The notes beneath the pieces are model-generated. The model did not search any database and was not told where the DNA came from. It saw nothing but the letters and a program-made list of their open reading frames with translations. Shown here piece by piece: positions 5,942-40,651 of a DNA stretch of 64,000 nucleotides. Position numbers and translations under genes: made by a program. Origin of the DNA: a virus (Duplodnaviria; Caudoviricetes); IMG/VR virus record IMGVR_UViG_3300027800_000347, positions 1,548-65,547 of that record. The stretch is one strand, 5' to 3'. Numbering within the stretch: the stretch's first letter is position 1; every line of letters begins with the position of its first letter.

Positions 5942-7768
5942 TCATAGCCATGCCTCGGCCACGAACCGGGACACCGGGGACTCGTACAGGCGCATCTGGC
6001 CGTCATGGCCCGGCTTTTCGGACCGCTCCGGACGCACCGCCATAAGCAGCACGTCCCGCGCGCGGGTGATGGCCACATAGGCAAGCCGCCGTTCTTCCTC
6101 GATGTCTCCGGACCTCACGGCGCGTTCGCTCGGCAAAATGCCCTCGTTGCATCCGGCCAGGATCACGCACGGCCATTCCAGGCCCTTGGCGCCATGGATG
6201 GTGGCCAGGGTGACGACGCCGGGGCCTTCGGAGTCAGAGGGGGGGATTTCGTCCTGCACGTCGTAGGTGGAGAGCCAGTCCAGGTAGGCGGACACGGATT
6301 CGTGGCCCATCGGCGCGCCCTGACTCCATTCTTCAATGAAGACGAAAGCCGGGTGCGGCGGATTATCCTGGCCGGAACAAAGAAGATCGTCGAGCGTCGC
6401 GGCCACGTCGAAGGCGTCGGCGTCCGGACCATCTATCCCGGCAAAGAACAGGCTGTGCCGCCCATCGCCGGAGTTCGCCAACCACGCCTCCAGGTGGCCG
6501 ATGTCCAGTTGCACGGCCAGGGCCCGGACGGCGGAATACTCCTCGGGCGAAAGCCCGATGGCGTCCTTGATGAGCATGAAGGCGAAATTGTCCCTGGGGT
6601 TCACGACCAGCTTGAGGAAGGCATGGAACCGCCGGAACTCTTCGGAGTTGGTCAGGGCGGCCTTGCGCCCCACGTAGAGGTACGGCACTCCCAAAGCGTC
6701 CAGTTCGTCGGCCACGCGCCCGAGCAGGGCATGCTTGCGGGCCAGGACGGCGATGTCGCGGGGAGCACTTCCTTCTGCGATGGTCAGGCCGACACATTGG
6801 GCGGTACGGGCGCTATCCATCCCGGGAGCACGGCCAATCCGCGTGGACGCCTTCCGGCACGCCTGCATCGTCACCGGAAGCCGCATCAGGTTGTGCTCGA
6901 TCAGCCTGTTTGCCGATTCGACGATGCCGACACCGGAGCGGTAATTCCGCTCCAGCCTCAAAACATGGAAGGTGTCAGCATTCTCAAGGAGGTATTCCGG
7001 AGCGGCCCCACGCCATTGATAGATGGCCTGACTGGTATCTCCGACCGCAAACAGCGTGGCCGGAAGGTCGCGGGCCATGGACTCCAGGAGGCCCCATTGC
7101 AGCCGGTCCAGGTCCTGCACTTCGTCCACCAGGACGTGCCGCCAGCCGAGGTATTGCTTGACCAGGGGCAGAAGCAGCATGAAGCCGGTCAATATGCCGC
7201 CGTAGGTCAGGGCGTTATTCTCGCGGCAACGGCCCATGAAGGCGTTGAACAGGTTGAAGGCCGGATCAAATTCGGCCGGTTCGATGCCCGTGGCGTAGAA
7301 GTCCGAAAAGGCCTTATCCACGGCCTTTTTCGGGGTCTTCCAGGTCTTTCCCTTGAGGGCACCGACCTCCGTGGCCACCGTGCGCAGCAGGAAATCCTCT
7401 TCCCACTCCGAATAGACGGTGATCTGCCCGGGGCGCAGACCGATCAACTCCCCGAACCGCTGGAGCTGATGCAGGGCCAGGGCGTGCATGGTGCCCATGG
7501 TCACCCGGTAGGCGGCGCTGCCGATGCGGGCCACGAGGCGCTCCCGCATCTCGCCAGCGGCTTTCCGGGTGAAGGTGACGGCCACGATTTCGGACGGCGA
7601 GGCGTGGCATTGCTCGATCAGGGAGGCGATCCGTTCCGTGAGCACGCGGGTCTTCCCGGAACCGGCCCCGGCCAGGACCAGGGCGCGCCGGGCGTCCGTG
7701 GTCACGGCGGCAAGCTGGTCCGGGTCCAGGCTTGGGCGGGTCGGGCACGAGGGATTAAGCGTTTCCAT
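5942..7768 (-). CDS. UvrD/Rep/PcrA-family SF1 helicase
   Basis: LVLAGAGSGKT, VTFTRKAA, LVDEVQD, VGDTSQAIYQWRGA, LERNYRS, TIHGAKGLEW, EEERRLAYVAITRAR. Confidence 0.95.
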   Translation of the reverse strand: METLNPSCPTRPSLDPDQLAAVTTDARRALVLAGAGSGKTRVLTERIASLIEQCHASPSEIVAVTFTRKAAGEMRERLVARIGSAAYRVTMGTMHALALHQLQRFGELIGLRPGQITVYSEWEEDFLLRTVATEVGALKGKTWKTPKKAVDKAFSDFYATGIEPAEFDPAFNLFNAFMGRCRENNALTYGGILTGFMLLLPLVKQYLGWRHVLVDEVQDLDRLQWGLLESMARDLPATLFAVGDTSQAIYQWRGAAPEYLLENADTFHVLRLERNYRSGVGIVESANRLIEHNLMRLPVTMQACRKASTRIGRAPGMDSARTAQCVGLTIAEGSAPRDIAVLARKHALLGRVADELDALGVPYLYVGRKAALTNSEEFRRFHAFLKLVVNPRDNFAFMLIKDAIGLSPEEYSAVRALAVQLDIGHLEAWLANSGDGRHSLFFAGIDGPDADAFDVAATLDDLLCSGQDNPPHPAFVFIEEWSQGAPMGHESVSAYLDWLSTYDVQDEIPPSDSEGPGVVTLATIHGAKGLEWPCVILAGCNEGILPSERAVRSGDIEEERRLAYVAITRARDVLLMAVRPERSEKPGHDGQMRLYESPVSRFVAEAWL

Positions 7769-8348
7769 GGTCAACCCCCATCTCCACCACGTCCCAGCCC
7801 TCGGGAACAACGGACGGCACATGACAGGTGTTGACGATCAGCGCCGCCCCGGGGTTGGTGGCAGCGATGTGTCCCAGAGCCCCGGCCAGCCGGGCTTGAT
7901 CCAGTTCGGCCGCCTCCAGGATCAAGAGCCTGTGCGGGGCCGCGCCAAGCAGGGCATGGGCCAGGGCCGCCTCAAAAAGCACCTTTTCCCCGCCGGAGAG
8001 CCCGGCATGGGGCGTGACCCGGCCTTCCAGTTCCCATGCCAGGGTGACGCCGCCGTCTTCTTCGATGCGCAGAACGGCTTTCCCGTCCGGCAGGATGGCG
8101 CCCATGGTTTCCGCCAGCTTGGCGCACGATCCGGCCACGGCCCAGTCCTTCTTCTTCCGCAGTTCCTCAAGGGCCTCTTTGGCCTCGCGTCCGGCTTTCG
8201 CGGCGGCTTCGGCGTTGACCCGCTGGGTTTCGGCGGTTTCGTCCATCCCCTTGGCCTTTTGGAACAAGGCGAGTTCCCCGCGCAGGGTGCGCAGGCGCTC
8301 ATCCATGCCCTTGGTCTGGGCTTCCATGATGTCGGTGTCAGCGATCAT
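7755..8348 (-). CDS. SMC/Rad50-like ABC ATPase, C-terminal half
   Basis: Coiled coil, then signature LSGGEK, Walker-B-like LLILEAAELD and H-loop IVNTCH. Confidence 0.75.
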   Translation of the reverse strand: MIADTDIMEAQTKGMDERLRTLRGELALFQKAKGMDETAETQRVNAEAAAKAGREAKEALEELRKKKDWAVAGSCAKLAETMGAILPDGKAVLRIEEDGGVTLAWELEGRVTPHAGLSGGEKVLFEAALAHALLGAAPHRLLILEAAELDQARLAGALGHIAATNPGAALIVNTCHVPSVVPEGWDVVEMGVDHGNA

Positions 8349-9334
8349 GCCGCGACCTCCCGGGGCTGGCCCTGGCGGGCCTTGGCCAGTTCGGATTTGA
8401 TGACCATGCGCGCCGCGCAGACCTCGCACCCGGCCCGGGCCATGGCGGCAAGGATGCGCTCAAGGATGGCCGCCACGTCGGGGGCGTCGGAAGCGGAGGG
8501 GGCGGGCTTGGCGTAGGATTCGAGCGGCGGCGGAGGCGCTATGGTCGAACGGGCCTGCCCCCGCCATGCGTCGGGCGACTCGGCGGCCGGGGCCGCTTGC
8601 TGCGGCGTAGGCGCCATGGATCCTTGCTGTGCAGCCTGCCGCTTCGCGGCCTCGGCCTGTTCGTCGGCCCTGGCCGCTTCGATCCTGGCGGCGTGCAGGT
8701 CTTCCCTTGCCTGCTTCAGTTCCGCTTCGACCGTCGCGACTTCGGCGGCCTTGTCGGCCAGGGTTCCGGCGGGCAGTTCAAGGCGGGCCTTCTGCGCCTG
8801 GATGGCCGAAATGACGGACAGGGCCTCGCGCTCCTTGCGTTCGGCCTCGTTCGCCCTGGCCGTGGCCGCAGCGATCTTTTCCCCGATGTTCTTCACGTCG
8901 CCGTCCGGCGGGAAGAGGCGGAAGAGCTCGTCCACTTTCCGCTGGTCCGACAGGGCCAGGAAGACAGACAGGTCCACCACACCCACCCCGGCAAGCTCCC
9001 TGGCGAAATCGGCGGGCTTGGCCTTGGTGCCGCCTACGAAAAGCTCCTGCGAAACGGCGCCGCTTTTCGAGCGCGTGAAGCGGCGTTCGAGCTTCATGCC
9101 CCCGTCCAGGGTGATGCCGACGCGCATGTCTCTCCCCTTGCCGTCAAAGAATGCGTCCATGATGTCGGGGTTTCTTTTACCCGCGCCCGGCACGTAGCCG
9201 AGCACGGCGAGTTGCAGGGCCTGGGAACGGCTGGACTTGCCCGCGCCGTTCGGGCCGACCACGATGGCCCGCGCCCCCAAGGGGGCCGTGAATGTGGCCC
9301 CCTTGAAGTTGTGCGCATGGACGGCGGAAATCAC
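8345..9334 (-). CDS. SMC/Rad50-like ABC ATPase, N-terminal half
   Basis: VHAHNFKG, Walker A IVVGPNGAGKSS, long coiled coil, C-terminal CEVC. Confidence 0.8.
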   Translation of the reverse strand: MISAVHAHNFKGATFTAPLGARAIVVGPNGAGKSSRSQALQLAVLGYVPGAGKRNPDIMDAFFDGKGRDMRVGITLDGGMKLERRFTRSKSGAVSQELFVGGTKAKPADFARELAGVGVVDLSVFLALSDQRKVDELFRLFPPDGDVKNIGEKIAAATARANEAERKEREALSVISAIQAQKARLELPAGTLADKAAEVATVEAELKQAREDLHAARIEAARADEQAEAAKRQAAQQGSMAPTPQQAAPAAESPDAWRGQARSTIAPPPPLESYAKPAPSASDAPDVAAILERILAAMARAGCEVCAARMVIKSELAKARQGQPREVAA

Positions 9335-10620
9335 GACTCGCCCCGGTCCACGCGGGCGCTGATCGAATGGTAGAGGGCGCGGGCCTGCGCCGGGGTCACG
9401 GCAGCCTCGGGGCGGATGCCCATTTCAATCCGGGACACGCGGTCCAGGTCAGGGAACATCTCCTTGGTGCTCTCGTAGTTGGTCAAGTCCTTGCGGTCTT
9501 CGGCAGAGAGCGGGGCGGCCGTGGGCGCCGGGCCGGTCATGTCCTCGGGTTCGGGTTCCGGCTCCGGGGCCTCCGGCTGTCCGTATGTGCCGGTTTCACC
9601 AGGGGCCATGTCGATGGTGGCGGCCATGGGTTCGGGCGGCGCGGTTTCTTCGTCTTCGGCCGCGATGCCCGCCATGTCGTCGTCCATGCGCTCGACGCCC
9701 TTGCGCACGTCGATGGTCATGCCCGGGGCCTGCCCCTGCGGGAGCGCGAAGTTTTGGCCCTCGGAAAGGGACTTCACCCGGTCCTGGACGCTGGCGTAAA
9801 CGCTGGTGTCCCATTTCATGAGGCTGCCGTTGGTGGGCCGCCAGCAAATGACGGCCAAGTCCCACCGGGCGCCAGGGGCCTTTTGCAGGCCGGAGAGGTG
9901 TTTGCATGCGTTGCGGCGGGCGAAGGTCTGGGCAAAATCCAGAGCCTTCTTTTCGCGGTTCAGGATTTCGCCGTACCACTTCAGGGCTTCGTCGTGCTCC
10001 GAGTTGACCCACAGGACCATGGTTTCGTCGAACGGATATTTGCCCCACGTTCCGTCCCCTTTCGGCTTGTCCATCTCGGCCGGAAGCAGCTTGAACGCCT
10101 GCGGGGTCTTCTTGGCCTTGGCCACGAGGTCGATGAGCCTATAACTTGGCACGTCATAGGCCGTGGTCCAGTCCGCCACCATGGGCAGTCCCTTCGAGGA
10201 AAACCGAAAGGCGATGGCCCGGGCGTAGATGTTCAGGATGCGGCGATTGTTGGGGTCGCGGATCACGTGCGGGTTGGTCTGCTCGATGCCGTCCACGATC
10301 ACGGAGCGGGGGAAGATCACGCACGTGCCCGCTGCCTCGGCCCACATCTCATAGCCCTGGGCGGAAACCACGAAGGGGCCGTTGAAAACGGGCTGCACCA
10401 GCCCGCCGTTTTCGACGGTCAGGGTCAACCGTTGTTTGAAAGCCTTGATCTGCCCGTCCTGGCTGCGCAGGGCAAAGGCTTCATCCTCGGCCAGGGCCAG
10501 CACGCTGTGCTTGTGAATCCCGGCGAGGTAAGAGGAAAGGGCCTTGCCTTCCTCGGGCATGGTGGCCAAAACCTTATCCAGGGCGGTCTTCGCCTGGTCC
10601 TGTAGCGATTCGTAGGACAT
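9331..10620 (-). CDS. Hypothetical protein, possible recombination/annealing factor by position
   Basis: 429-aa ORF with GGAGG RBS and acidic Pro-rich tail, directly upstream of the ATPase and helicase genes; function inferred from context only. Confidence 0.6.
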   Translation of the reverse strand: MSYESLQDQAKTALDKVLATMPEEGKALSSYLAGIHKHSVLALAEDEAFALRSQDGQIKAFKQRLTLTVENGGLVQPVFNGPFVVSAQGYEMWAEAAGTCVIFPRSVIVDGIEQTNPHVIRDPNNRRILNIYARAIAFRFSSKGLPMVADWTTAYDVPSYRLIDLVAKAKKTPQAFKLLPAEMDKPKGDGTWGKYPFDETMVLWVNSEHDEALKWYGEILNREKKALDFAQTFARRNACKHLSGLQKAPGARWDLAVICWRPTNGSLMKWDTSVYASVQDRVKSLSEGQNFALPQGQAPGMTIDVRKGVERMDDDMAGIAAEDEETAPPEPMAATIDMAPGETGTYGQPEAPEPEPEPEDMTGPAPTAAPLSAEDRKDLTNYESTKEMFPDLDRVSRIEMGIRPEAAVTPAQARALYHSISARVDRGES

Positions 10621-10834
10621 GATCCCTCCTTGTTGACTCCACAGCCCGGCGGGCTTAGGGGTCAGTTTGTGGTTTGTTTTTGCTCCCCGCAGGAGCTTGT
10701 TGCCGCCCCGGTGTTCGCGCACCGGGGCTTTTCAATCCGGATTCCGAGTTTCTCCGCCAGAACAGCGTTTTCCAGCTTGTTCAGGTCATCCATGAGCCGG
10801 GCAAATCGCCTGTCTGCACGGCCGTTGATGGTCC

Positions 10835-16201: not shown

Positions 16202-17187
16202 TCGGCCAGCAGATGCCCGCGTCCTTCGACACGGCCCGTGGACGTGAGCCGACGCTATGCCGGGCCGGGATCGCCGCAGAAAAAAACGGGCTCAAGCTGG
16301 CCACGGGCAGCCGGTTCCTGTGCCCACGCCTCGGACCGATGACGCGCGAGAAGTGTCTTGGGAATTTTCAGGCCGGGCATTCGGCCTGCACCACGGGCTT
16401 CGTCTGCGGGATTGGCAGACTTGAGGCCGAAAAGGAGGGATTGGACGTGGGCTACAACACAAAGAAAGGCGACTGCGCGTGCGGCACCAAGGATGTGCAA
16501 CTCGACAAGCACGGACGGTGCTACAAATGCCAAGCTGCTATCCGGGAAGAGGCCCGCAGGCTTGCCAGGATGACGCCTGCCGCTTCCGAGGACGCTACGC
16601 CGCCCGTTGCCCCGAGCGAGGCCGCGCCGTCCATTCAGGCGGTGCAGGGCGGGTGTCCGGCGGACCTGCAGGACGATCCGGACCTGTCGGACGATCTGGA
16701 TTTGCCGGACGCGGGCTATGCGCCGGGCGTGACGGCAGTGGTCGAGACGCTGCCGCCTGAGGGCCAGCTTGTCGGGGACGAAGATCCGGTGCCCGGGGAC
16801 TGCCAGGGTTGGCCGGAAACGGCCGGCACGCTGGTCATCGACGGGATGGAGTTTGAGGTCATCCCTTCCGGTAAAAACGCCAGCATCGGGCGTCCTGTCG
16901 TTTCCTTCCGGTCTGCCGCCATCGCCTTTTCCGCCGACGCCGTGCGCAAGCATGGCCTGGACAAATACAGCCACGTCCGCATGCACAAGGCCCCTGGCGC
17001 GGTCTGCTTCGAGGTCATGGCCAAGCCCGGGGCGAATGCCCGCAAGCTGCACCGCCAACAAAAAGACGCGGCGTCCCTCGCCTGCACGATCCACAATCTC
17101 AAGGACATTTTCCCGGGGCTGACCGGGAGGCGGTTTGATCTGGAGGCAACGGGTCGGCCGGGCTTCTTTCTGGCGAGGGTGGGATGA
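16198..17187 (+). CDS. Hypothetical phage protein
   Basis: 329-aa ORF, Cys-rich N-terminus, ATGA overlaps at both ends. Confidence 0.65.
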   Translation: MIGQQMPASFDTARGREPTLCRAGIAAEKNGLKLATGSRFLCPRLGPMTREKCLGNFQAGHSACTTGFVCGIGRLEAEKEGLDVGYNTKKGDCACGTKDVQLDKHGRCYKCQAAIREEARRLARMTPAASEDATPPVAPSEAAPSIQAVQGGCPADLQDDPDLSDDLDLPDAGYAPGVTAVVETLPPEGQLVGDEDPVPGDCQGWPETAGTLVIDGMEFEVIPSGKNASIGRPVVSFRSAAIAFSADAVRKHGLDKYSHVRMHKAPGAVCFEVMAKPGANARKLHRQQKDAASLACTIHNLKDIFPGLTGRRFDLEATGRPGFFLARVG

Positions 17188-19004
17188 TGCTGGATCTGTT
17201 CGGCGGACAATACGGCGGCCCGGGCCATGGCGACGAGCTCATCATCGATTCGTTCGCCGGGGGCGGCGGGGCGTCAACGGGGATCAAGTCCGCTCTCGGG
17301 CGCGATCCGGATGTGGCGCTCAACCATGACCCCATCGCCCTGGCCATCCACCGGGCCAACCACCCCGGCAGTCGCCACTACTGCCAGGACATCTTTTCCG
17401 TCGAGCCGAACCACGTCACGAACGGCCGCCCGGTGGGGTTGTTGTGGGCCAGTCCGGACTGCACTCATTTTTCCAAGGCCAAGGGCGGCGCGCCGAAGCG
17501 GGATGCAAAAATCCGCGACCTCGCGTGGGCCGTCGTGAAGTGGGCCAAGCAGGCCCGGCCCCGGGTCATCATCTTGGAAAACGTGGAGGAATTCGCCACC
17601 TGGGGACCGCTCACCGACCGGGGCGAGATCATCAAGGGCCGGGCGGGCGAGACGTTCCGGGCTTGGCTGCGGCAGTTGCGACGCCTCGGATACCGGGTTG
17701 AGTACCGGGAGCTTCGGGCCTGTGACTACGGGGCCCCGACGATCCGCAAGCGGTTTTTCCTCATCGCCCGTTGCGACGGTCAGCCCATCGTCTGGCCGAA
17801 GCCGACCCCTCGGCCGGAAGCCGTGAACGAGGACGGGGTTGTCACGAAATGGGCGACAGGTCACGGCCTCACGTTGAAAGATTTGCAGCGGCTTCCTTCG
17901 TACCGCACGGCGGCGGACATCATTGACTGGTCCATCCCGTGCCCGTCGATCTTCGAGCGCAAGCGGCCGTTGGCTGAAAATACCCTGCGCCGCATTGCCG
18001 AGGGCATCAGGCGGTACGTCATCAATGCGGCCGAACCGTTCATCGTGACCTACTACGGGCCGAAGCGGGTCGGGGATTTTCGGGGCAACGGCATCGAGGA
18101 GATGCTTGGGACGCAAACCACGGAAAACCGGCACGCCCTGGTGACGCCGTACATCGTCAAGCCGAACCACGCATACCCGCATTTTCGGGGGAACTCGGTT
18201 GATGAGCCGCTGCGCACCGTGACCGCGAGCGAACCGGGCTTTGCCCTTGCGGCTCCGGTTTTGGTTGGGGCGGGAGGCCCGGTCTACGGGGGAAAACCCC
18301 ACCCGGTAGATCGGCCCATGAACACGCTCATGACCGAAAATCACCACGCCCTGGTGTCCGCCTTCCTGGCCCAGCACAACGGCGGCCCTCGCAACGACCG
18401 GTTGGCCGGGCGCCCTGCGGATGCGCCCATGTCCACGATCACGGCCACGGGCAGCCAGCAAGGCCTTGTGGCGGTCCATGTGCAACGCGATTTCGGCAAC
18501 AGCGTCGGGCACCCGGCGTCCTCCCCATGCGGGACGGTGACATCCGGGGGTGGCGGCAAGTCCAGCTTGGTCGCTTCGCACCTGGTCAAGTTGCGCGGCA
18601 CATGCCGACACGGCCAGGCCGCAACCGACCCCATGCCCACGGTCACGGCCGGGGGGATGCACATCGGCGAGGTGCGGGCGTTTCTGGTTAAGTATTTCGG
18701 GTGCGGCATCGGGCAGGATGCGCGCGATCCGCTCCATACGGTCACGACCAAGGACCGCTTTGGCCTCGTGACCGTCCAGGGCGAGGACTACATCATCGCG
18801 GACATCGGCCTGCGCATGCTCACGCCCCGGGAGCTGTTTTTGGCCCAAGGATTCCCGCCGGATTACGTCATCGATCCCGTCTACAACGGCAAGCCGCTCC
18901 CGAAGTCCAAGCAGGTCAGGGCATGCGGAAACTCTGTGTGCCCGCCGCTGGCGGAGGCCCTGGTGCGCGCGAACTGCCACGACATGGCGGAGGTTGCGCC
19001 GTGA
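17184..19004 (+). CDS. C5-cytosine DNA methyltransferase (orphan)
   Basis: [18 protein letters not shown] catalytic motif, [29 protein letters not shown]. Confidence 0.95.
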
Positions 19005-28531: not shown

Positions 28532-28879
28532 ATGACCCCGATGTCCCCCGAAACCCCGACACCGGAAAAGGTTGACTGGATCGTGCAGTGGCTTGACGCC
28601 GTTCCCGCTGTGGCCCTGGCCTGTATGGGCGGCGTGGTCCGCGCCCTGGTGGCCCGTCGAAAGAAAACCTGTCGCCCCATCGTCATCGTCATGGACTTGG
28701 CGGTTTCGGCGGTTGTGGCCGCCTTCGCCGGGGCCGTGACCTACTTCTTTCTCGACAGCGCGGACATCTCCCAAGGCGTCAAGGCCGGGCTGTGCGGCAT
28801 GGCCGGATATTCCGGGACGGAACTCCTGCGGGTGTTCTCGCGGCGGATGCTGGTCGCGGCCGGGGACTGCGACGTTTAA
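28532..28879 (+). CDS. Holin
   Basis: 115 aa, three hydrophobic segments, GGVVRAL...GMAGYSG, in the lysis cassette. Confidence 0.75.
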   Translation: MTPMSPETPTPEKVDWIVQWLDAVPAVALACMGGVVRALVARRKKTCRPIVIVMDLAVSAVVAAFAGAVTYFFLDSADISQGVKAGLCGMAGYSGTELLRVFSRRMLVAAGDCDV

Positions 28880-35327: not shown

Positions 35328-36446
35328 ATGGAAAGGGACTCGCAAGCACTCCTAGACCTGTACTTTCGCGCCCGGGCCATCGCGTTCCGGTATCGCCTTG
35401 ACATCTTCGAGGCTTCGGCGCTTGAGCAAATCCTTGCCGCCTTCGACCAGGGCCGGGCCGAGGTCTTCCGCGAGTTCGCGGCCAAGTTCCAGGGCATGAG
35501 CGATTGGAAGGCCGAACGCCTGCAAGCCCTGCTTGAATCCATGGACGATATGACCCTAGCGCTGCGGCAAACCTTGTCCGGGCAGTATGTGGCCATGGCC
35601 GCCACAGCCGGGGGGCCTGCCCTGGCCGAGGCCGCCGCCATGCTCACCGTGGGCGGCCTGTCGCATGTGGCGGTCAACGCCGTGGACCTGACGCAAAGCC
35701 AGCTTCAGGCGTTTTTCCAGTCCACGCCCTTGAGCGGCAGGCGTATCGACAAATGGGTGGACGCCAGCTTTGACGCCACGGTGCAAGCCCAAATCCGGCA
35801 GGCCATCAACGTGGGCGTCATCAAGGGCGAGGGCTATCCGGGGCTGGTGAAGCGCGTGGAGCAGGGCTTCGGTATGGCCCGCAACGAGGCCGTGACCCTG
35901 ACAAGAACCTTCGTGAGCGCGGCCAACAATGAGGCCCGGAACATGGTTTTCAAGGCCAACCCGGACGTGGTGAAGGGCTGGAAATGGTTGACCAGCGGCG
36001 ACAACCTGGTTTGCCCCCGGTGTCTGGCCCTGCACGGCCGCCGGTTCGACGTGGGCAAGGGGCCGCCTATCCCTTTACATCCCCGGTGCCGCTGCAACCG
36101 TGGCCCGGCCACCATCACCATGCGTGAACTCGGCATCCCCATCGATGAGTTTCAGGGCGAAATGGACAGGTGGGTGGTGCGGGGCAAAAAAGGCGCGGAC
36201 GGGGAGCTTGTCGTTCGCAACATCGACGCCGGAAACCGAAACGCCGTGGTGCGCGTCTCCCGGGCCACGGACGCCGATGCGTGGTTTCAAAGTTTGTCCG
36301 GTGCCGAGAAGCGGGCTACGACGCTTGGCCCTGGCCGGGTCAAGCTGCTCGAGGAAGGCAAGATCGGGGTGAAGGATCTTTTGCGAGAGGATTTCACGCA
36401 AAGGACGCTTGAAGAACTGCACAGGATTGCGGAGGGGAGATCATGA
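35328..36446 (+). CDS. Minor capsid/head morphogenesis protein (SPP1 gp7/MuF)
   Basis: AVTLTRT; KWLTSGDNLVCPRCLALHG...PPIPLHPRCRC. Confidence 0.9.
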   Translation: MERDSQALLDLYFRARAIAFRYRLDIFEASALEQILAAFDQGRAEVFREFAAKFQGMSDWKAERLQALLESMDDMTLALRQTLSGQYVAMAATAGGPALAEAAAMLTVGGLSHVAVNAVDLTQSQLQAFFQSTPLSGRRIDKWVDASFDATVQAQIRQAINVGVIKGEGYPGLVKRVEQGFGMARNEAVTLTRTFVSAANNEARNMVFKANPDVVKGWKWLTSGDNLVCPRCLALHGRRFDVGKGPPIPLHPRCRCNRGPATITMRELGIPIDEFQGEMDRWVVRGKKGADGELVVRNIDAGNRNAVVRVSRATDADAWFQSLSGAEKRATTLGPGRVKLLEEGKIGVKDLLREDFTQRTLEELHRIAEGRS

Positions 36447-36532
36447 ACCAAGGGGAACCACATGCCTGATTCCGGCGACTACGACGTCCCGGCCATGGAC
36501 GCCGGGCGAGGGGTCGGGGCCGAGGCGCGGGC

Positions 36533-36736
36533 CTAGTCGTCAAGGAAGAGGTCTTTTGGGCGAAGATCAAGGGCGCGGGCGATTTTCCTCAATGTCTTTA
36601 GGGTGCAGCAATCAATGCCCTCTTCGCCGTTTCGACAGGCGCGAACAAGCGTCGTTCTCGCCAACCCGGTTTTTCTCTCCATGTCGGACAAGGACAGGCC
36701 TTTCACGGCCATGAAGTCGCGGACACGGCTTTGCAT
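36533..36736 (-). CDS. XRE/Cro-type HTH regulator divergent from the TIGR locus (start could be 36802)
   Basis: KGLSLSDMERKTGLARTTLVR...TLKTLRKIARALDLRPKDLF. Confidence 0.8.
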   Translation of the reverse strand: MQSRVRDFMAVKGLSLSDMERKTGLARTTLVRACRNGEEGIDCCTLKTLRKIARALDLRPKDLFLDD

Positions 36737-36849
36737 CGGTTCCAGGTGGATGATTTCCCCGGCCCGGTCAAGGCCGTTTTTATTATTCGTCGCGTGGAGC
36801 ATGGAGCATAAAAAATCACGCCAGAGAGGAAAAATCAAGCTCGAAGTGG

Positions 36850-36878
36850 TTGACGGCAGATAAGCGGTAGTGTAAAAA
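36850..36878 (+). promoter_or_regulatory. Sigma70-like promoter for the array-Tas operon
   Basis: TTGACG(36850)-17-TAAAAA(36873), ending about 6 nt before the first array unit. Confidence 0.6.
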
Positions 36879-36883
36879 GTCAT

Positions 36884-37108
36884 GAACGGCCCGAGGTAGG
36901 GTGGAACCCAGGATATTCATGCGAGCCATTGGATGGATGAAACCCATATATGCCGTGCGAGCCACGGTTTCCCTTAATCACAGGCCCGTCGTGCGAGCCA
37001 GTTTTGAAGTGAACCCCGGGACCAGAATGCGAGCCAGGTTGCCCATGAAATCCAAAATAGCATTGCGAGCCACACCACCCTTGAAGCCCACCCCCTTTAT
37101 GCGCCCCC
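36884..37108 (+). ncRNA. TIGR-like dual-repeat guide array 1 (6 x 36 nt)
   Basis: TGCGAGCCA at 36920, 36956, 36992, 37028, 37064; TGAAACCCA-like repeats 18 nt later; unique 9-nt spacers; terminal TGCGCCC at 37100. Confidence 0.9.
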
Positions 37109-37124
37109 AAACCCAGGAGGACCA

Positions 37125-37964
37125 ATGAGACCCGACACCCCGGAACGTGAACTGGCGATTCAGCGGTTGAACAAGTCCATCCGCGACTACGACGCCCTGA
37201 ACAAAGTCATCACGGGCATGAAGAACCGCCTCCACGCCCTGAACCCGGACGCCGACCCGAAACACGACCCGTTTTTGAACGGCACAAAGCAGTCCTCCGG
37301 GCTTGAACAGATCAAGGCCCGACTGTCCCGGGCCATCGAGAAGGATTTGTTGGCGTGGCCGATCTACACGGAGTGGATGCAGCACGTTCCCGGCATCGGC
37401 CCGGCCATCGCGGGGCGGCTCATCATGTTGTACTACTACAGGTTTACGCCCGTGTGCGCCTGCGGGGAGGTCCTTGAAAAGAAGGACGGCACTTTCTGGT
37501 GCCCGGCGTGCGAGAAGTCGGTCAAGGGCGACGGCGTGACCAAATACCGGATCGAGCTTCGGGATTTTCCGAACATCTCCAAGTGGTGGGCTTTCATGGG
37601 CATGGCTGTCCTGGACGGCAAGAAGCCGCACCGCGAGAAGGGAAAGCAGCAAAATTGGTCGAGCGTCGGCCGTGCCACCTGCTACCTCATCGGGGACCAG
37701 TTCAACCGCCAGACCACCAAGACCCCCTATGGCGCGTTCCTGCTTGAGCGCAAGGCCCGTATCGAGCGGCTACAACCCGAGGTCAAGAAGGGGCATCGCC
37801 TGAACCGCGCCCGGCATGAGGCGGCGAAACTGTTCCTGGCCCACTTCTGGACTGTGGCCCGGACGCTGGACGGCCTGACCGTGACGCCTCCCTACGCGGG
37901 CACGATCATGGGGCACACCGGGATCGTTGAGCCGTTCCACTTCGGGGTGAAGCAGGCGGCGTAG
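37125..37964 (+). CDS. tasA: TasA-like Nop-domain RNA-guided DNA-binding protein (no nuclease domain; zinc-ribbon insert)
   Basis: N-terminal coiled coil; WMQHVPGIGPAIAGRLI; FPNISKWWAFMGM...GKKPHREKGKQQNWS; HRLNRARHEAAKLFLAHFW; CACG...CPAC insert; no DEDD/RuvC or HNH; flanked by 36-nt arrays. Confidence 0.85.
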   Translation: MRPDTPERELAIQRLNKSIRDYDALNKVITGMKNRLHALNPDADPKHDPFLNGTKQSSGLEQIKARLSRAIEKDLLAWPIYTEWMQHVPGIGPAIAGRLIMLYYYRFTPVCACGEVLEKKDGTFWCPACEKSVKGDGVTKYRIELRDFPNISKWWAFMGMAVLDGKKPHREKGKQQNWSSVGRATCYLIGDQFNRQTTKTPYGAFLLERKARIERLQPEVKKGHRLNRARHEAAKLFLAHFWTVARTLDGLTVTPPYAGTIMGHTGIVEPFHFGVKQAA

Positions 37965-37965
37965 G

Positions 37966-38442
37966 TTTTTGCCAGAGTCCGAGTGAAGCCCATAGACATT
38001 GTGCGAGCCACTGGCCCGATGAAACTCATGCGAACGCTGCGAGCCATGTCAACGCTGAAACCCAACCCCCGGGTGCGAGCCATGAACTTGATGAAACTCA
38101 ACGGCGCATTGCGAGCCATCGAGCAGATGAAACCCAGAAAATGATTGCGAGCCAGTGTTTATGTGAACCCCATGAGTGAAGTGCGAGCCATTGCTCGCGT
38201 GAATTCCATCGCTAACGTGCAAGCCAGACATGTTTTGAAGCCTAAAACCGCCATGCGAGTCAATTTGTGCCTGAAACCCGTTTTAGGGGTGCGAGCCAGC
38301 GGCCAAATGAAATCCATCGGGCATGTGCGAGCCAAAAAAGGAGCGAACCCCATTTAGTATTTGCGAGCCAGCGTCAATGTGAAACCTACTCCCCCTGTGC
38401 GAGCCATGGCGAAAGTGAAACCTACGCTTCCAGTGCGCCCTT
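37966..38442 (+). ncRNA. TIGR-like dual-repeat guide array 2 (13 x 36 nt)
   Basis: TGCGAGCCA (two copies with one mismatch) every 36 nt from 38002 to 38398; TGAAAC(C/T)CA-like loop repeat; unique 9-nt spacers; terminal TGCGCCC at 38434. Confidence 0.93.
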
Positions 38443-38455
38443 AAAAGGAGAACCC

Positions 38456-39082
38456 ATGAAGATCAACCATCTGAAAGCGCAGTACGACAGTAAGCCCATC
38501 GCGGACATTGAGGCCGCGATTCGAGCCTGCCAGTCCGAAGAATTGACCTCCCACCGGAAGTACATCGGCATTCTGGCCTACCTGGAGCATACCGGGCGCT
38601 TCAAGGAGAATCCGGTCTATACCAAGGCCGACTTTGACACCTACCTTCGGGAGTGCTTCGACATTTCCATGACCAAGTTCCGGGAGTCGAAACTGCTTTA
38701 CGTCAAGTTTCCGGATCAGGCCGAAAAGTACGGCATCGGCTACGTCTCCCGGGCGGCCAAGCAGTGCGGGCAGGACAAGCTCCCGACCATCTTCACCGCC
38801 CTGCGCCGCGAGGAAGCCAAGCGCAACGCGCCCGTTTCGTCCGAGGTCAAAGACGCGATCCTGGACGCGCATGCGAAGCCCAAGAAGCTCATCCAGTATA
38901 TCAATTGGGAGGCCAGATACCGCGAGGCCGCCGAGGAAATCCAGGTTTTGCGCGCCGAAATGGCCGAGAAGGACAAGACCATCGAACGCCTGCGGGCGGC
39001 CCTGGCGAAGCAGAAGGGCCACGGCGCGGCGTTTGTGCCGGTCACGATGGACGGCCAGCGGAGGGAGGCCATAGCACAGTAG
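38456..39082 (+). CDS. Tas-associated hypothetical protein (possible HTH + C-terminal coiled coil)
   Basis: AAGGAG RBS right after array 2; FDTYLRECFDISMTKFRESKLL helix pattern; heptad-rich C-terminus. Confidence 0.75.
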   Translation: MKINHLKAQYDSKPIADIEAAIRACQSEELTSHRKYIGILAYLEHTGRFKENPVYTKADFDTYLRECFDISMTKFRESKLLYVKFPDQAEKYGIGYVSRAAKQCGQDKLPTIFTALRREEAKRNAPVSSEVKDAILDAHAKPKKLIQYINWEARYREAAEEIQVLRAEMAEKDKTIERLRAALAKQKGHGAAFVPVTMDGQRREAIAQ

Positions 39083-39106
39083 TCTTTACGCACAACCGTT
39101 CCGCCA

Positions 39107-40300
39107 TCATAGGGGCCACTCCGGAAACAGCTTGCGAACCTCTCCGCTCCCAACAGACCGGGAAAACAGCTTGTAATTGCCAGTCTCCCTCCTGACCCTC
39201 CCGGCGACAATGGCCGGACTGATCTTGAGAGCTTCTGCGGTCTGAAAGACGAATCTCAGCTTGGTTCGATCTTTGGCAGGCGTCGCCTCCCATATTTCAG
39301 ACGGGATCGCCACATCAGCCGCAAAGGCGTTGGCTTGTTTCTCGACACCATCCATGGTCCGCGCGTCGAGGTCATCCACCATAAAGCCGCCCGGCTCGAC
39401 GTGTCCAAGGGCCAGATGCGCCAGCTCATGGAGCAAGGTGAACCAGAAGTTGTCCAGGCGGTCGAAGCGCAAGGACAGGCCCACGACGGCCCGACCATCA
39501 GGAACGAAGAGAGCCGCCCCATCCTGGTAGGTTTTGGGAAAGTGCTTCAGGACGATCATGCAGACGCCGAATCTGGCCAGATAGTCACGGGCGAGGGCCG
39601 GGCCGCGAGGATCTGTGCTCAATTCCAAAAGACCCTTGAAAAAGACGTGGTCCAAGGCCGCCCGGTCGAAAACGCCACCCTGGGGAGTGGCGGAGGCGAG
39701 GCAGCGCAGGCCCCCGACCCAAGCCAGGACGCAGGACGCATCGCCACGCATTCCGAGGCGCGTGGAGGAACGGGCGCAAAAGGCCGGCGCCACAGAGGCA
39801 AAGCCGACTTGCTCCAACCATCGCCCTGCCTGTGCGCGCATTTCGTCCGCCTCGGCAACGGCTTTAAGCCACCCGCGCTTGACCATCTCTTTGGTGGCCG
39901 CGCCATTCAGGGCGGAACACGGGTCAGGGTTCGGATCGGGGTCATCGGGTTGGTCCTGAAACAGCGTATCCAAGGGGATACCAAGCCCGGCATGAAGGCG
40001 TCGGATCATCTCCAGGGTTAGCCGACGCTTACCAGCCAGAACTTCGGACACAACCCCCTTGCTTCCGATGAAGGGTTCGAGGTCGCGCCGAGAAAGACCC
40101 TGCTGGTCCATGGCAAATTCTATGGCAGACAGGGGGGTCGGCTGCGGCATCGGGTAGTGCTCATCTTCATAGATTTCGACGAGCCGCGACCAATACTCCA
40201 GACGATCCAATTCCTCTGTCCCTGCTTTGGCGTGCATAAGGCTTTCAACCTTCGCCAGCGCCGCCTCATATTCTGCTTCGGTTTTAATCAGACGTTCCAT
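39107..40300 (-). CDS. higA: HigA-type antitoxin (HTH) fused to an ImmA/IrrE-like Zn-peptidase domain
   Basis: IKTEAEYEAAL...LVEIYEDEHYP...SEVLAGKRRLTLEMIRRLH; FWFTLLHELAH; EKQANAFA. Confidence 0.9.
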   Translation of the reverse strand: MERLIKTEAEYEAALAKVESLMHAKAGTEELDRLEYWSRLVEIYEDEHYPMPQPTPLSAIEFAMDQQGLSRRDLEPFIGSKGVVSEVLAGKRRLTLEMIRRLHAGLGIPLDTLFQDQPDDPDPNPDPCSALNGAATKEMVKRGWLKAVAEADEMRAQAGRWLEQVGFASVAPAFCARSSTRLGMRGDASCVLAWVGGLRCLASATPQGGVFDRAALDHVFFKGLLELSTDPRGPALARDYLARFGVCMIVLKHFPKTYQDGAALFVPDGRAVVGLSLRFDRLDNFWFTLLHELAHLALGHVEPGGFMVDDLDARTMDGVEKQANAFAADVAIPSEIWEATPAKDRTKLRFVFQTAEALKISPAIVAGRVRRETGNYKLFSRSVGSGEVRKLFPEWPL

Positions 40301-40333
40301 GATTCGCCCCCTGCTTTTGAGGCATGTTCAATG

Positions 40334-40651
40334 CTAAAGAGAAGATATGTTTTTTATGCGCCCATACTCTGTATGGGTCATAACCTTCCGCACAAAAGCC
40401 TTTTGAGCAGTAAAGTTGATGATAGCTATTAAGCGAAAATTATCACCGATATTAAATACAAAATGCCCATTCCCCACATCGTCAACAGAACGCGAGAAAT
40501 ATGCCTTCAAGTCAACAAGGCTTCCCCACGCCCTTGAAGAAATCACATTATACCAGTTTACCAACGGGGCCTTGGCCTGGGCGTGCCCTTCCCAATACTC
40601 CCGCAGGGTCCGCCTGGAGATAACCCGCATTTTCTTTTCCGCCCCGTTCAT
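40334..40651 (-). CDS. higB: HigB mRNA-interferase toxin
   Basis: MRVISRRTLREYW...FVFNIGDNFRLIAIINF...VMTHTEY. Confidence 0.92.
   Translation of the reverse strand: MNGAEKKMRVISRRTLREYWEGHAQAKAPLVNWYNVISSRAWGSLVDLKAYFSRSVDDVGNGHFVFNIGDNFRLIAIINFTAQKAFVRKVMTHTEYGRIKNISSL

What the first reader, a model, noticed from the sequence alone, without database searches (positions are those of the whole stretch)
36893..38433. Guide repertoire: 19 spacer pairs predicting 18-bp targets
Seen (A/B). Array 1: GAGGTAGGG/GGATATTCA, TTGGATGGA/TATATGCCG, CGGTTTCCC/GGCCCGTCG, GTTTTGAAG/GGACCAGAA, GGTTGCCCA/AAATAGCAT, CACCACCCT/CCCCCTTTA. Array 2: GAGTCCGAG/TAGACATTG, CTGGCCCGA/TGCGAACGC, TGTCAACGC/ACCCCCGGG, TGAACTTGA/ACGGCGCAT, TCGAGCAGA/GAAAATGAT, GTGTTTATG/TGAGTGAAG, TTGCTCGCG/TCGCTAACG, GACATGTTT/AAACCGCCA, ATTTGTGCC/TTTTAGGGG, GCGGCCAAA/TCGGGCATG, AAAAAGGAG/TTTAGTATT, GCGTCAATG/CTCCCCCTG, TGGCGAAAG/CGCTTCCAG. 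I noticed no full self-target in this window but could not search exhaustively. Inference: the targets are competing phages, plasmids or host genes. No spacer-acquisition gene is visible.
Basis: partly seen in the sequence, partly recalled or inferred. Interest (0 to 1): 0.8.

Follow-up and report, generated by a model that had tools for sequence, protein, structure and literature searches.

The report
Phage TIGR guide arrays, targets unknown
This stretch of a phage genome holds two arrays of 19 short two-part guide RNAs flanking a nuclease-free TIGR-Tas protein, a recently described kind of RNA-guided DNA binder, and no DNA that these guides would recognise could be found.

Summary
Six units lie upstream and 13 downstream of a 279-aa gene.

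That gene is a nuclease-less TasA. It matches solved TIGR-TasR at E 6e-30 by sequence and 1e-11 by fold. This is a dual-repeat TIGR-TasA locus of the kind described by Faure et al. 2025, on a 65.5-kb virus contig, with a conserved 208-aa companion gene.

The 18-bp two-strand target model follows from that literature. The claim about what the guides target is not supported:
- No match with 2 or fewer mismatches in the contig.
- No excess of cognate over shuffled pairs in the contig, in the one close relative's 52-kb genome, or in 0.94 Mb of 110 TIGR-bearing loci.
- In IMG/VR, only 4 of 19 pairs were scanned, against one shuffled control.

The arrays are not invariant. A relative with 95%-identical TasA keeps only 2 of the 19 units.

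Verdict: a new member of a known kind. Targets and the spacer-renewal mechanism stay open, as in the literature.

The parts
36850..36878 (+). Promoter-like site upstream of array 1: TTGACG, 17 nt, TAAAAA
   Evidence: Read. It did not pass the strict sigma-70 scan. The relative L001 has TTGACA, 17 nt, TATTAT at the same relative place. Inferred, not shown.
36884..37108 (+). TIGR array 1: 6 units of 36 nt, with a 5'-truncated first edge, then a 3'-truncated terminal edge (TGCGCCCCC) from 37100. Unit 3 (36956) has a degenerate loop, TTAATCACA.
37125..37964 (+). tasA: a 279-aa nuclease-less Tas protein with a coiled coil, a Nop domain, a 4-Cys insert and a C-terminal Tyr/His loop
   Evidence: Sequence match to PDB 9mty at E 6e-30 and to TasH at 2.9e-8. 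Foldseek match to 9mty at 1e-11. Invariant C111, C113, C126, C129, Y257 and H264 in 12 sequences. No Pfam hit.
37966..38442 (+). TIGR array 2: 13 units of 36 nt, with a 5'-truncated first edge (TTTTTGCCA), then a 3'-truncated terminal edge (TGCGCCCTT) from 38434
38456..39082 (+). Conserved TIGR-associated 208-aa helical protein, a candidate for the TasParB of Faure et al. An RBS-like AAGGAG lies upstream.
   Evidence: tblastn homologues lie beside arrays in 34 fetched loci. AF2 model has pLDDT 86.5, is all-helical and has a long C-terminal helix at 151-192. ParB likeness is inconclusive.
36533..36883 (-). Divergent Cro/C1-type HTH regulator gene. The true start may be the ATG at 36802.
   Evidence: Pfam HTH_26 at 1.8e-8. 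A 51%-identical homologue sits at the same place in L001.
39107..40300 (-). Convergent HTH plus IrrE/ImmA-type M78 peptidase gene that closes the island
   Evidence: Pfam Peptidase_M78 at 2.6e-10 and HTH_3 at 1.8e-5

Best explanation
The two arrays are the guide store of a phage-borne dual-repeat TIGR-TasA system.

Inferred steps:
- One transcript starts near 36850 and runs through array 1, tasA, array 2 and the 208-aa gene. No terminator separates them.
- By homology, TasA dimers bind the UG...CCA boxes of the edge and loop repeats. Their C-terminal Tyr/His loop cuts the precursor inside each edge repeat, giving 19 different 36-nt tigRNAs.
- From characterised relatives, each tigRNA directs a TasA dimer to an 18-bp DNA site. 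Spacer A pairs with one strand and spacer B with the adjoining 9 nt of the other strand. On one strand the site reads 5'-A + reverse complement of B-3', and a gap of up to 2 bp is tolerated.
- TasA has no nuclease domain, so the outcome is binding and blocking of transcription or replication, not cleavage.

Shown here:
- The targets are not in this phage's own 65.5-kb contig, nor in its one close relative.
- Guide content is replaced almost completely between phages whose TasA is 95% identical.

The most likely targets are therefore outside DNA: co-resident mobile elements or the host. They remain unidentified.
For: Array anatomy:
- 19 units of exactly 36 nt, with 9-nt spacers.
- 17 pattern matches against 0.19 expected.
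- Every full edge starts with UG, and 16 of 17 end with CCA. Loops start with UG in 17 of 19 and end with CCA in 11 of 19; the rest differ from CCA by one base.
- This matches box D = UG and box C = CCA (PMC12045711 section 8; yeast preprint passage).
- The first edge is 5'-truncated and the last edge 3'-truncated, as described for TIGR arrays.

Protein:
- phmmer gives E 6e-30 to the 331-aa chain of 9mty, which titles TIGR-TasR with tigRNA and target DNA.
- Query residues 65-102 and 147-274 align to chain residues 155-192 and 198-322. The N-terminal nuclease part of that chain therefore has no counterpart.
- The Foldseek top 10 rows are all TasR or TasH, followed by IS621/ISCro4 bridge-RNA recombinases.
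- Tyr257 and His264 are invariant and align with TasH PLY...GHTGIV. A Y/H dyad processes pre-tigRNA in dual-repeat systems.
- The gene is under purifying selection. Against L001, codon positions 1+2 are 544/560 identical and position 3 is 236/280.

Function of relatives:
- TasA and dead TasR bind DNA and repress transcription in a guide-dependent way.

Operon:
- No terminator-like site on the + strand between 36884 and 39082.
- RBS-like sequences directly follow each array.

Turnover:
- L001 has 92.9% tasA nucleotide identity, but only 2 of the window's 19 units have a homologue there.
- Three position-matched units share 20/54 spacer bases, while the edges of these units are 25/27 identical.
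- In other locus pairs, all units were shared in 4 of 4 pairs at 100% TasA identity. At 99.5%, 3 of 9 units were shared. In 5 of the 6 pairs at 93.0-98.5%, none were shared; in the sixth, the window with L001, the automatic parser found 1 of 15.

Composition:
- Spacer GC follows locus GC across 92 loci (r 0.68, p 1e-13).
Against: No target was found.

Own contig (counts at 0, 1, 2, 3, 4 mismatches):
- A+rcB: cognate 0, 0, 0, 1, 14 against shuffled 0, 0.06, 0, 1.17, 12.6 per 19 pairs.
- rcB+A: cognate 0, 0, 0, 0, 14 against 0, 0, 0.06, 1.28, 13.2.

Relative's genome:
- Window guides against all 52,363 bp of G001, and G001's 20 guides against the window contig. There was no cognate hit with 1 or fewer mismatches, and two hits with 2 mismatches (gap 2) against 0.11 expected. 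One of these is the shared degenerate unit, and it is not conserved in G001 itself.

TIGR-bearing loci:
- 1,063 distinct pairs were tested against 0.94 Mb of masked loci. The two-strand geometries gave 22 half-exact hits with 1 or fewer mismatches against 16.6 for shuffled pairs. The one exact hit is not from the window. The same-strand controls gave 16 against 16.5.

IMG/VR:
- 4 of 19 pairs were scanned as A, 0-2 nt, rcB. They gave 0, 3, 3 and 2 stretches, none at gap 0. One shuffled pair gave 3.
- The six hit contexts I examined are unrelated to each other, apart from one duplicate record.

Not shown for this locus: transcription, processing and DNA binding. No RNA run is listed. No terminator follows the arrays, unlike the published description.
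Confidence: 0.7

Rival explanations
1. Self or life-cycle regulation. The guides act on the phage's own genome at imperfectly matched sites, for example to time late genes. The cassette sits in the head module between two HTH regulators.
For: The cassette lies between the portal and Mu-F genes and the coat gene, flanked by a Cro/C1-type HTH gene and an HTH-M78 gene. TasA relatives repress transcription. Edge mismatches are tolerated by TasR. The unit shared with L001 has a site in the window at 28651: spacer B 9/9, a 2-nt gap, then rc(A) 6/9, or 7/9 for L001's version.
Against: There is no cognate excess at 0-5 mismatches in the contig. The 28651 site is within what shuffled pairs give (0.11 per set at 2 mismatches). 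No matching site exists in G001 for its own copy. Near-total guide replacement between close relatives fits poorly with fixed internal operators.
Confidence: 0.12
2. The spacers currently have no matched targets. The arrays are drifting, or the unit RNAs serve another role such as scaffold or decoy, and the apparent repertoire is not a list of targets.
For: No target was found in any search. Spacers are replaced or randomised between relatives. No acquisition machinery was seen, which agrees with the literature.
Against: Repeats and register are kept perfectly over 19 units. The same repeat consensus is kept in 34 genome stretches and 60 viral stretches from bacteria and archaea. tasA is under purifying selection. 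Arrays are identical in independent metagenome runs wherever covered. Relatives use such spacers as true guides. The search space was small compared with the unknown host and its mobile elements.
Confidence: 0.13
3. Same-strand (box C/D-like) recognition of RNA or single-stranded DNA. Both spacers pair with one strand, for example an mRNA.
For: Unit 16 (38290) read as B+A matches window 10553-10570 in 17 of 18 bases. The complementary strand there is the sense strand of the ORF at 9331-10722. Shuffled pairs gave 0 such hits in 342 pairings. TasR cuts single-stranded DNA that matches one spacer.
Against: It is one hit among 12 geometry and gap combinations. My own estimate of the chance is roughly 0.02-0.03. 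TasR showed no activity on RNA substrates. The global test shows no same-strand excess, 16 against 16.5.
Confidence: 0.03

Closest known systems
Dual-repeat TIGR-TasA systems with a tasParB-type companion gene (Faure et al. 2025, Science, PMC12045711; Xu et al. 2026, bioRxiv 10.64898/2026.09.09.750476)
   Same: 36-nt units made of edge repeat, 9-nt spacer A, loop repeat and 9-nt spacer B. UG and CCA boxes. Truncated first and last edges. Arrays upstream of, downstream of and between tasA and a small conserved gene. A solo Nop-domain protein without a nuclease. Phage-borne. No adaptation genes.
   Different: No terminator follows the arrays; they run straight into the next gene's RBS. TasA carries a conserved 4-Cys insert that I did not see mentioned in the sections I read. 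ParB homology of the companion gene could not be reproduced with my tools. Whether this contig is already in the authors' tables could not be checked, because supplements are closed.
TIGR-TasR and TasH nucleases (PDB 9mty; 9w04, 21kl and others)
   Same: The Nop domain, coiled-coil dimerisation region and C-terminal loop are homologous. The repeats have the same architecture.
   Different: There is no RuvC or HNH domain. The query aligns only from residue 155 of the 331-aa TasR chain onwards. Binding without cleavage is therefore expected.
CRISPR arrays
   Same: Repeat-spacer arrays encode many guides beside an effector gene. Guide content is hypervariable between close relatives.
   Different: Two alternating 9-nt repeats with split 9+9-nt guides that read both DNA strands. 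No cas genes, including no Cas1/Cas2. No PAM in characterised relatives. Here the units shared with the relative lie in the interior of the arrays, not at one end.
Archaeal box C/D sRNAs and IS110/IS621 bridge RNAs
   Same: A Nop-fold protein binds a two-guide RNA framed by C and D boxes. Foldseek lists IS621 and ISCro4 after the Tas entries.
   Different: No Rfam family matches. There is no fibrillarin or L7Ae partner and no DEDD transposase domain. The units form a regular tandem array.

Membership tests
TIGR-Tas (dual-repeat type) | A Tas protein with a Nop domain homologous to characterised Tas proteins | tested here: met
   phmmer gives E 6e-30 to 9mty and 2.9e-8 to TasH. The AF2 model (pLDDT 82.2) gives Foldseek 1e-11 to 9mty, and the top 10 rows are all TasR or TasH.
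TIGR-Tas (dual-repeat type) | An array of two alternating 8-12-nt repeats separated by roughly 9-nt spacers, in 36-nt units beside the tas gene | tested here: met
   There are 19 units of exactly 36 nt in a 9/9/9/9 layout. The pattern matches 17 times against 0.19 expected by chance.
TIGR-Tas (dual-repeat type) | Both repeats start with UG (box D) and end with CCA (box C) | tested here: met
   Full edges: UG in 17 of 17 and CCA in 16 of 17. Loops: UG in 17 of 19 and CCA in 11 of 19, with the others one base off.
TIGR-Tas (dual-repeat type) | The array begins with a 5'-truncated edge and ends with a 3'-truncated edge followed by a terminator | tested here: inconclusive
   The truncated edges are present at both ends of both arrays. 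No terminator-like site follows either array on the + strand. An RBS and a gene follow instead.
TIGR-Tas (dual-repeat type) | Processing into 36-nt tigRNAs, carried out by a C-terminal Tyr/His loop | not testable with these tools
   Y257 and H264 are invariant in 12 sequences and align to TasH Y...GH. No RNA run is listed for this DNA.
TIGR-Tas (dual-repeat type) | Tandem-spacer recognition of an 18-bp DNA site on both strands | not testable with these tools
   This is known for TasR, TasH and other TasA proteins. No natural site was found for any of the 19 pairs.
TasA subtype (no nuclease) | No RuvC or HNH domain N-terminal to the coiled coil and Nop domain | tested here: met
   The protein has 279 aa. 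Residues 1-75 are modelled as long helices. The alignment to the 331-aa TasR chain starts at its residue 155. No Pfam domain was found.
TasA-TasParB operon (Faure 2025, Methods and fig. S14) | A ParB-like gene in an operon with tasA, with arrays around or between the two genes | tested here: inconclusive
   A conserved 208-aa gene follows array 2, and homologues lie beside arrays in 34 loci. No ParB family was found in Pfam for any of 22 members. Foldseek found nothing at E 0.001 or better. VIA gave the ParB DNA-binding domain 6s6h_B at Z 5.2 over 96 residues, below unrelated rows at Z 6.0. The Atlas features point to partition-protein and DUF3102 clusters at 0.91-0.92.
CRISPR-Cas | A single 25-36-nt repeat with spacers of similar size, and cas genes | tested here: not met
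   The repeats are 9 nt and of two kinds. No Cas family was found among the 25 ORFs scanned in Pfam.
Box C/D sRNA | A match to a C/D sRNA model, with K-turn boxes RUGAUGA and CUGA | tested here: not met
   No Rfam match at E 1 or better over 36500-38800. The boxes are reduced to UG and CCA.

The most novel reading that the evidence does not exclude
TIGR guide sets are renewed by an unknown in-place replacement process that is much faster than divergence of the effector gene. Whole 9+9-nt spacer pairs, and sometimes only one half of a pair, are exchanged in the interior of the array. The 9-nt repeats, the register and the flanking genes stay about 90% or more identical, and no adaptation gene is present. 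The phage would use this fast-changing set to bind and silence rival elements or host loci that are absent from present databases.
Probability: 0.25. Interest if true: 0.7.

Novelty: new member of a known kind. Interest (0 to 1): 0.3.

Why it matters
TIGR-Tas systems were described in 2025. A 2026 preprint from the group that described them still lists their natural targets and the way arrays gain spacers as open questions. This locus adds nothing new in kind.

It does offer a clean natural case. It is a complete cassette (promoter, array, tasA, array, companion gene) on a 65-kb phage contig, with a close relative whose guides have almost all been exchanged. That makes the pair a usable starting point for testing guide turnover and TasA repression.

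The negative target searches, run with shuffled-pair controls, also show how little can be concluded from 18-bp matches without the host and community sequence.

Tried and rejected
Repeat and RNA-family searches:
- Tandem Repeats Finder found no array.
- Rfam had no match.

Protein-family searches:
- Pfam had no hit for TasA or for the 208-aa protein.

Relatives and host:
- INPHARED phages gave only two remote TasA-like hits (29-31% identity) and no DNA relative.
- The genome contigs protein scan found no TasA relative.

Sequencing runs:
- No RNA holder is listed for this DNA, so expression and processing could not be examined.
- The laid runs were contigs only.

Target searches, all without excess over shuffled pairs:
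- Own contig.
- G001 in both directions.
- 0.94 Mb of TIGR loci.
- IMG/VR for 4 of 19 pairs in one geometry plus one shuffled control. I did not inspect the contexts of the two hits.

Spacer relationships:
- In one search, cognate A and B looked less alike than shuffled pairs. I set this aside as an artefact of out-of-phase unit calls in one locus (L056).
- Across all loci, half-unit sharing (A only 110, B only 108) is close to the A-against-B cross-comparison level in the same tally (185 over two comparisons). I make no general claim from it.

The 208-aa protein:
- Fold searches gave no clear fold.
- A profile search of PDB sequences gave only coiled-coil noise.

Not sent:
- Complex prediction, because I do not claim that the two proteins bind.
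Full report
**What is there**

The window is 64,000 of the 65,547 bases of a single virus record. Between 36884 and 38442 the + strand carries two arrays of strictly 36-nt units. Each unit is a 9-nt edge repeat (consensus TGCGAGCCA), a 9-nt spacer A, a 9-nt loop repeat (TGAAACCCA) and a 9-nt spacer B.
- Array 1 has 6 units (36884-37099).
- Array 2 has 13 units (37966-38433).
- In both arrays the first edge is 5'-truncated and a 3'-truncated edge closes the array.

A pattern made of the edge, nine free bases and the loop core matches 17 times, only inside these arrays. Shuffles gave 0.19 on average, and 0 of 100 reached 17. Tandem Repeats Finder and Rfam see nothing.

**The gene between the arrays**

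ORF 37125-37964 (279 aa) has no Pfam domain.
- It matches the 331-aa chain of PDB 9mty at E 6e-30 and TasH chains at 2.9e-8.
- Its AlphaFold model (pLDDT 82.2) finds 9mty, titled TIGR-TasR with tigRNA and target DNA, at Foldseek E 1e-11. The next hits are eight TasH chains, followed by IS621/ISCro4 bridge-RNA recombinases.
- The alignment covers only residues 155-322 of TasR, so the N-terminal nuclease is missing. This is a TasA.
- Among 12 aligned family members, four cysteines of an insert (C111, C113, C126, C129) and Y257 and H264 are invariant.
- The Tyr and His align with TasH PLY...GHTGIV. They correspond to the Y/H dyad reported to process pre-tigRNA in dual-repeat systems.

The family is large: 199 proteins at E 1e-5 or better, nearly all unnamed metagenome sequences.

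**Surroundings**

The cassette lies inside the head module.
- Upstream are a portal-type protein (DUF4055) and a Mu-F-like protein. Downstream is a P22-type coat protein.
- The cassette is framed by a divergent Cro/C1-type HTH gene and a convergent HTH-M78 peptidase gene.
- A promoter-like TTGACG, 17 nt, TAAAAA precedes array 1. This is my reading, and it fails the strict scan. The relative has TTGACA, 17 nt, TATTAT at the same place.
- No terminator-like site separates the arrays from the genes, and each array runs into an RBS. I infer one operon.

After array 2 comes a 208-aa gene.
- tblastn finds homologues directly beside TIGR arrays in 34 fetched loci.
- The model is all-helical with a long C-terminal helix.
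- Faure et al. describe a ParB-like tasParB gene in exactly this arrangement.
- I could not reproduce ParB homology. Pfam found no ParB family in 22 of 22 members, and Foldseek found nothing. VIA places a ParB DNA-binding domain at Z 5.2, below unrelated rows at Z 6.0. The Atlas offers only leads to partition-protein and DUF3102 clusters.

No Cas1/Cas2, integrase or reverse transcriptase appeared among the 25 ORFs I scanned.

**How it should work (from the literature)**

I read the following:
- Faure et al. 2025 (PMC12045711): outline and sections 4-8, 10, 44 and 49.
- Xu et al. 2026 (10.64898/2026.09.09.750476): outline and sections 5, 10, 12 and 13.
- Guan et al. 2026 (10.64898/2026.08.11.744272): outline, found passages and section 6.
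- Found passages only of PMC13421893 and of 10.64898/2026.07.30.739390.

What they report:
- Spacer A pairs with one DNA strand and spacer B with the adjoining stretch of the other.
- Gaps of 1-2 bp are tolerated, and there is no PAM.
- Box D is UG and box C is CCA.

The 'C - 5 rule' and the 8-nt 3' overhangs fit a site that reads 5'-A + rc(B)-3' on one strand (my derivation). One sentence in section 7 words the cut side differently, so I tested both orders throughout.

TasA and catalytically dead TasR repress transcription in a guide-dependent way. Natural targets and spacer acquisition are stated to be unknown.

**Target searches**

(a) Own contig, arrays masked. Counts are at 0, 1, 2, 3, 4 and 5 mismatches.
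- A+rcB: cognate 0, 0, 0, 1, 14, 119 against 0, 0.06, 0, 1.17, 12.6, 104.7 per 19 shuffled pairs (342 pairings).
- rcB+A: cognate 0, 0, 0, 0, 14, 116 against 0, 0, 0.06, 1.28, 13.2, 109.4.
- With gaps of 1-2, the best hit is a single 2-mismatch site.

(b) The only close relative is IMG/VR locus L001 (TasA 95% identical). I fetched its whole 52,363-bp record, G001.
- Neither the window's guides on G001, nor G001's 20 guides on the window, nor G001's guides on itself exceed shuffled pairs. There was no hit at 1 or fewer mismatches.

(c) The repeat pattern found 34 stretches in bacterial and archaeal genome contigs and 60 in IMG/VR.
- From 110 loci I parsed 1,176 units, of which 1,063 were distinct pairs.
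- Against 0.94 Mb of these loci with arrays masked, the two-strand geometries gave 22 hits against 16.6 for shuffled pairs. The same-strand controls gave 16 against 16.5.
- Among the 22 two-strand hits, the window contributes one 1-mismatch hit, at gap 2.

(d) In IMG/VR I could scan only 4 of the 19 pairs, as A, 0-2 nt, rcB on both strands.
- These gave 0, 3, 3 and 2 stretches, none at gap 0. One shuffled pairing gave 3.
- The contexts I inspected are unrelated high-GC phage sequences, and two are the same record.

No host genome is available for this virus record. The target question therefore remains open, not answered in the negative.

**Array turnover**

Against L001, tasA is 780/840 nt identical and the 208-aa gene 549/627. 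Outside the cassette the two phages share only patches of 75-85% identity.

L001 has 9 + 11 units against 6 + 13 in the window. Only two of the window's units have a recognisable homologue there:
- Array 1 unit 3, which has a degenerate loop in both phages (17/18 spacer bases shared).
- Array 2 unit 7 (15/18 spacer bases shared).
- Both lie in the interior of their arrays.

In the collinear stretch, the three units after the shared one keep 25/27 edge bases but only 20/54 spacer bases.

The same behaviour holds across other locus pairs:
- 100% TasA identity: all units shared, in 4 of 4 pairs.
- 99.5%: 3 of 9 units shared.
- 93.0-98.5% (6 pairs): none shared in 5 pairs. In the sixth, the window with L001, the automatic parser found 1 of 15.

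In the L004/L005/L015 trio, one spacer A is kept while its spacer B differs.

Within one freshwater system the arrays are stable. Low-coverage contigs of two further runs are identical wherever they cover the arrays. One run shows a single change in 5 kb, at 38354 inside a spacer B.

Spacer GC follows locus GC (r 0.68, n 92).

**Verdict**

This is a further member of the published TIGR-TasA kind.

The statement about what is targeted has no support beyond analogy. The most useful by-product is the well-matched pair of phages showing near-complete interior replacement of guides at about 93% gene identity.

Noticed in passing
window 10553-10570 (+), inside the ORF at 9331-10722 (-): Spacer B followed directly by spacer A of unit 16 (38290), on the same strand, matches in 17 of 18 bases. 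The sense strand of that ORF would be complementary to both spacers. Shuffled pairs gave 0 such hits in 342 pairings. It is one of 12 geometry and gap combinations tested, and it is not the published two-strand geometry.
   Followed up: partly
window 38354: One metagenome run holds a contig identical to 35500-40500 except for a single T>G change. The change falls in spacer B of unit 17.
   Followed up: no
loci L021-L114: The same edge and loop repeat consensus occurs in arrays on contigs labelled as very distant organisms. These include Aenigmatarchaeota, Nanoarchaeota and Thermoplasmatota among archaea, and Planctomycetota, Smithella, Desulfobacterales, Acidimicrobiaceae and Patescibacteria among bacteria. 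It also occurs in 60 IMG/VR stretches. One Thermoplasmatota contig carries more than 40 units.
   Followed up: partly
window 36956-36991 and L001 9834-9867: The one array 1 unit shared by both phages has a loop repeat without the UG and CCA boxes: TTAATCACA in the window and TTGACCACA in L001. L001 also has a 7-nt edge. It may be a dead unit, or it may mark the point where homology between the two phages begins.
   Followed up: partly
window 37125-37964, residues 103-146: TasA carries an insert with four invariant cysteines (CxC...CxxC), modelled as short strands and likely a zinc ribbon. TasR (9mty) does not align over it.
   Followed up: partly
loci L067, L089, L019, L003, L095, L022: Several arrays hold two units with an identical spacer A but unrelated spacer B, or the reverse, sometimes in adjacent units. 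By my estimate, exact 9-mer sharing within one array is far above chance. This hints at duplication followed by replacement of half a unit.
   Followed up: no
window 36400-40400 against G001: The HTH, array, tasA, array and 208-aa cassette is about 88-93% identical between two phages that elsewhere share only short patches of 75-85% identity. The cassette seems to move, or to be conserved, independently of the phage backbone.
   Followed up: partly
window 5942-7822, 8345-10722, 17184-19004: The contig also encodes a UvrD-type helicase, an AAA_23 protein next to an unassigned 462-aa protein, and a C-5 cytosine methyltransferase. These may be further defence or anti-defence cargo.
   Followed up: no
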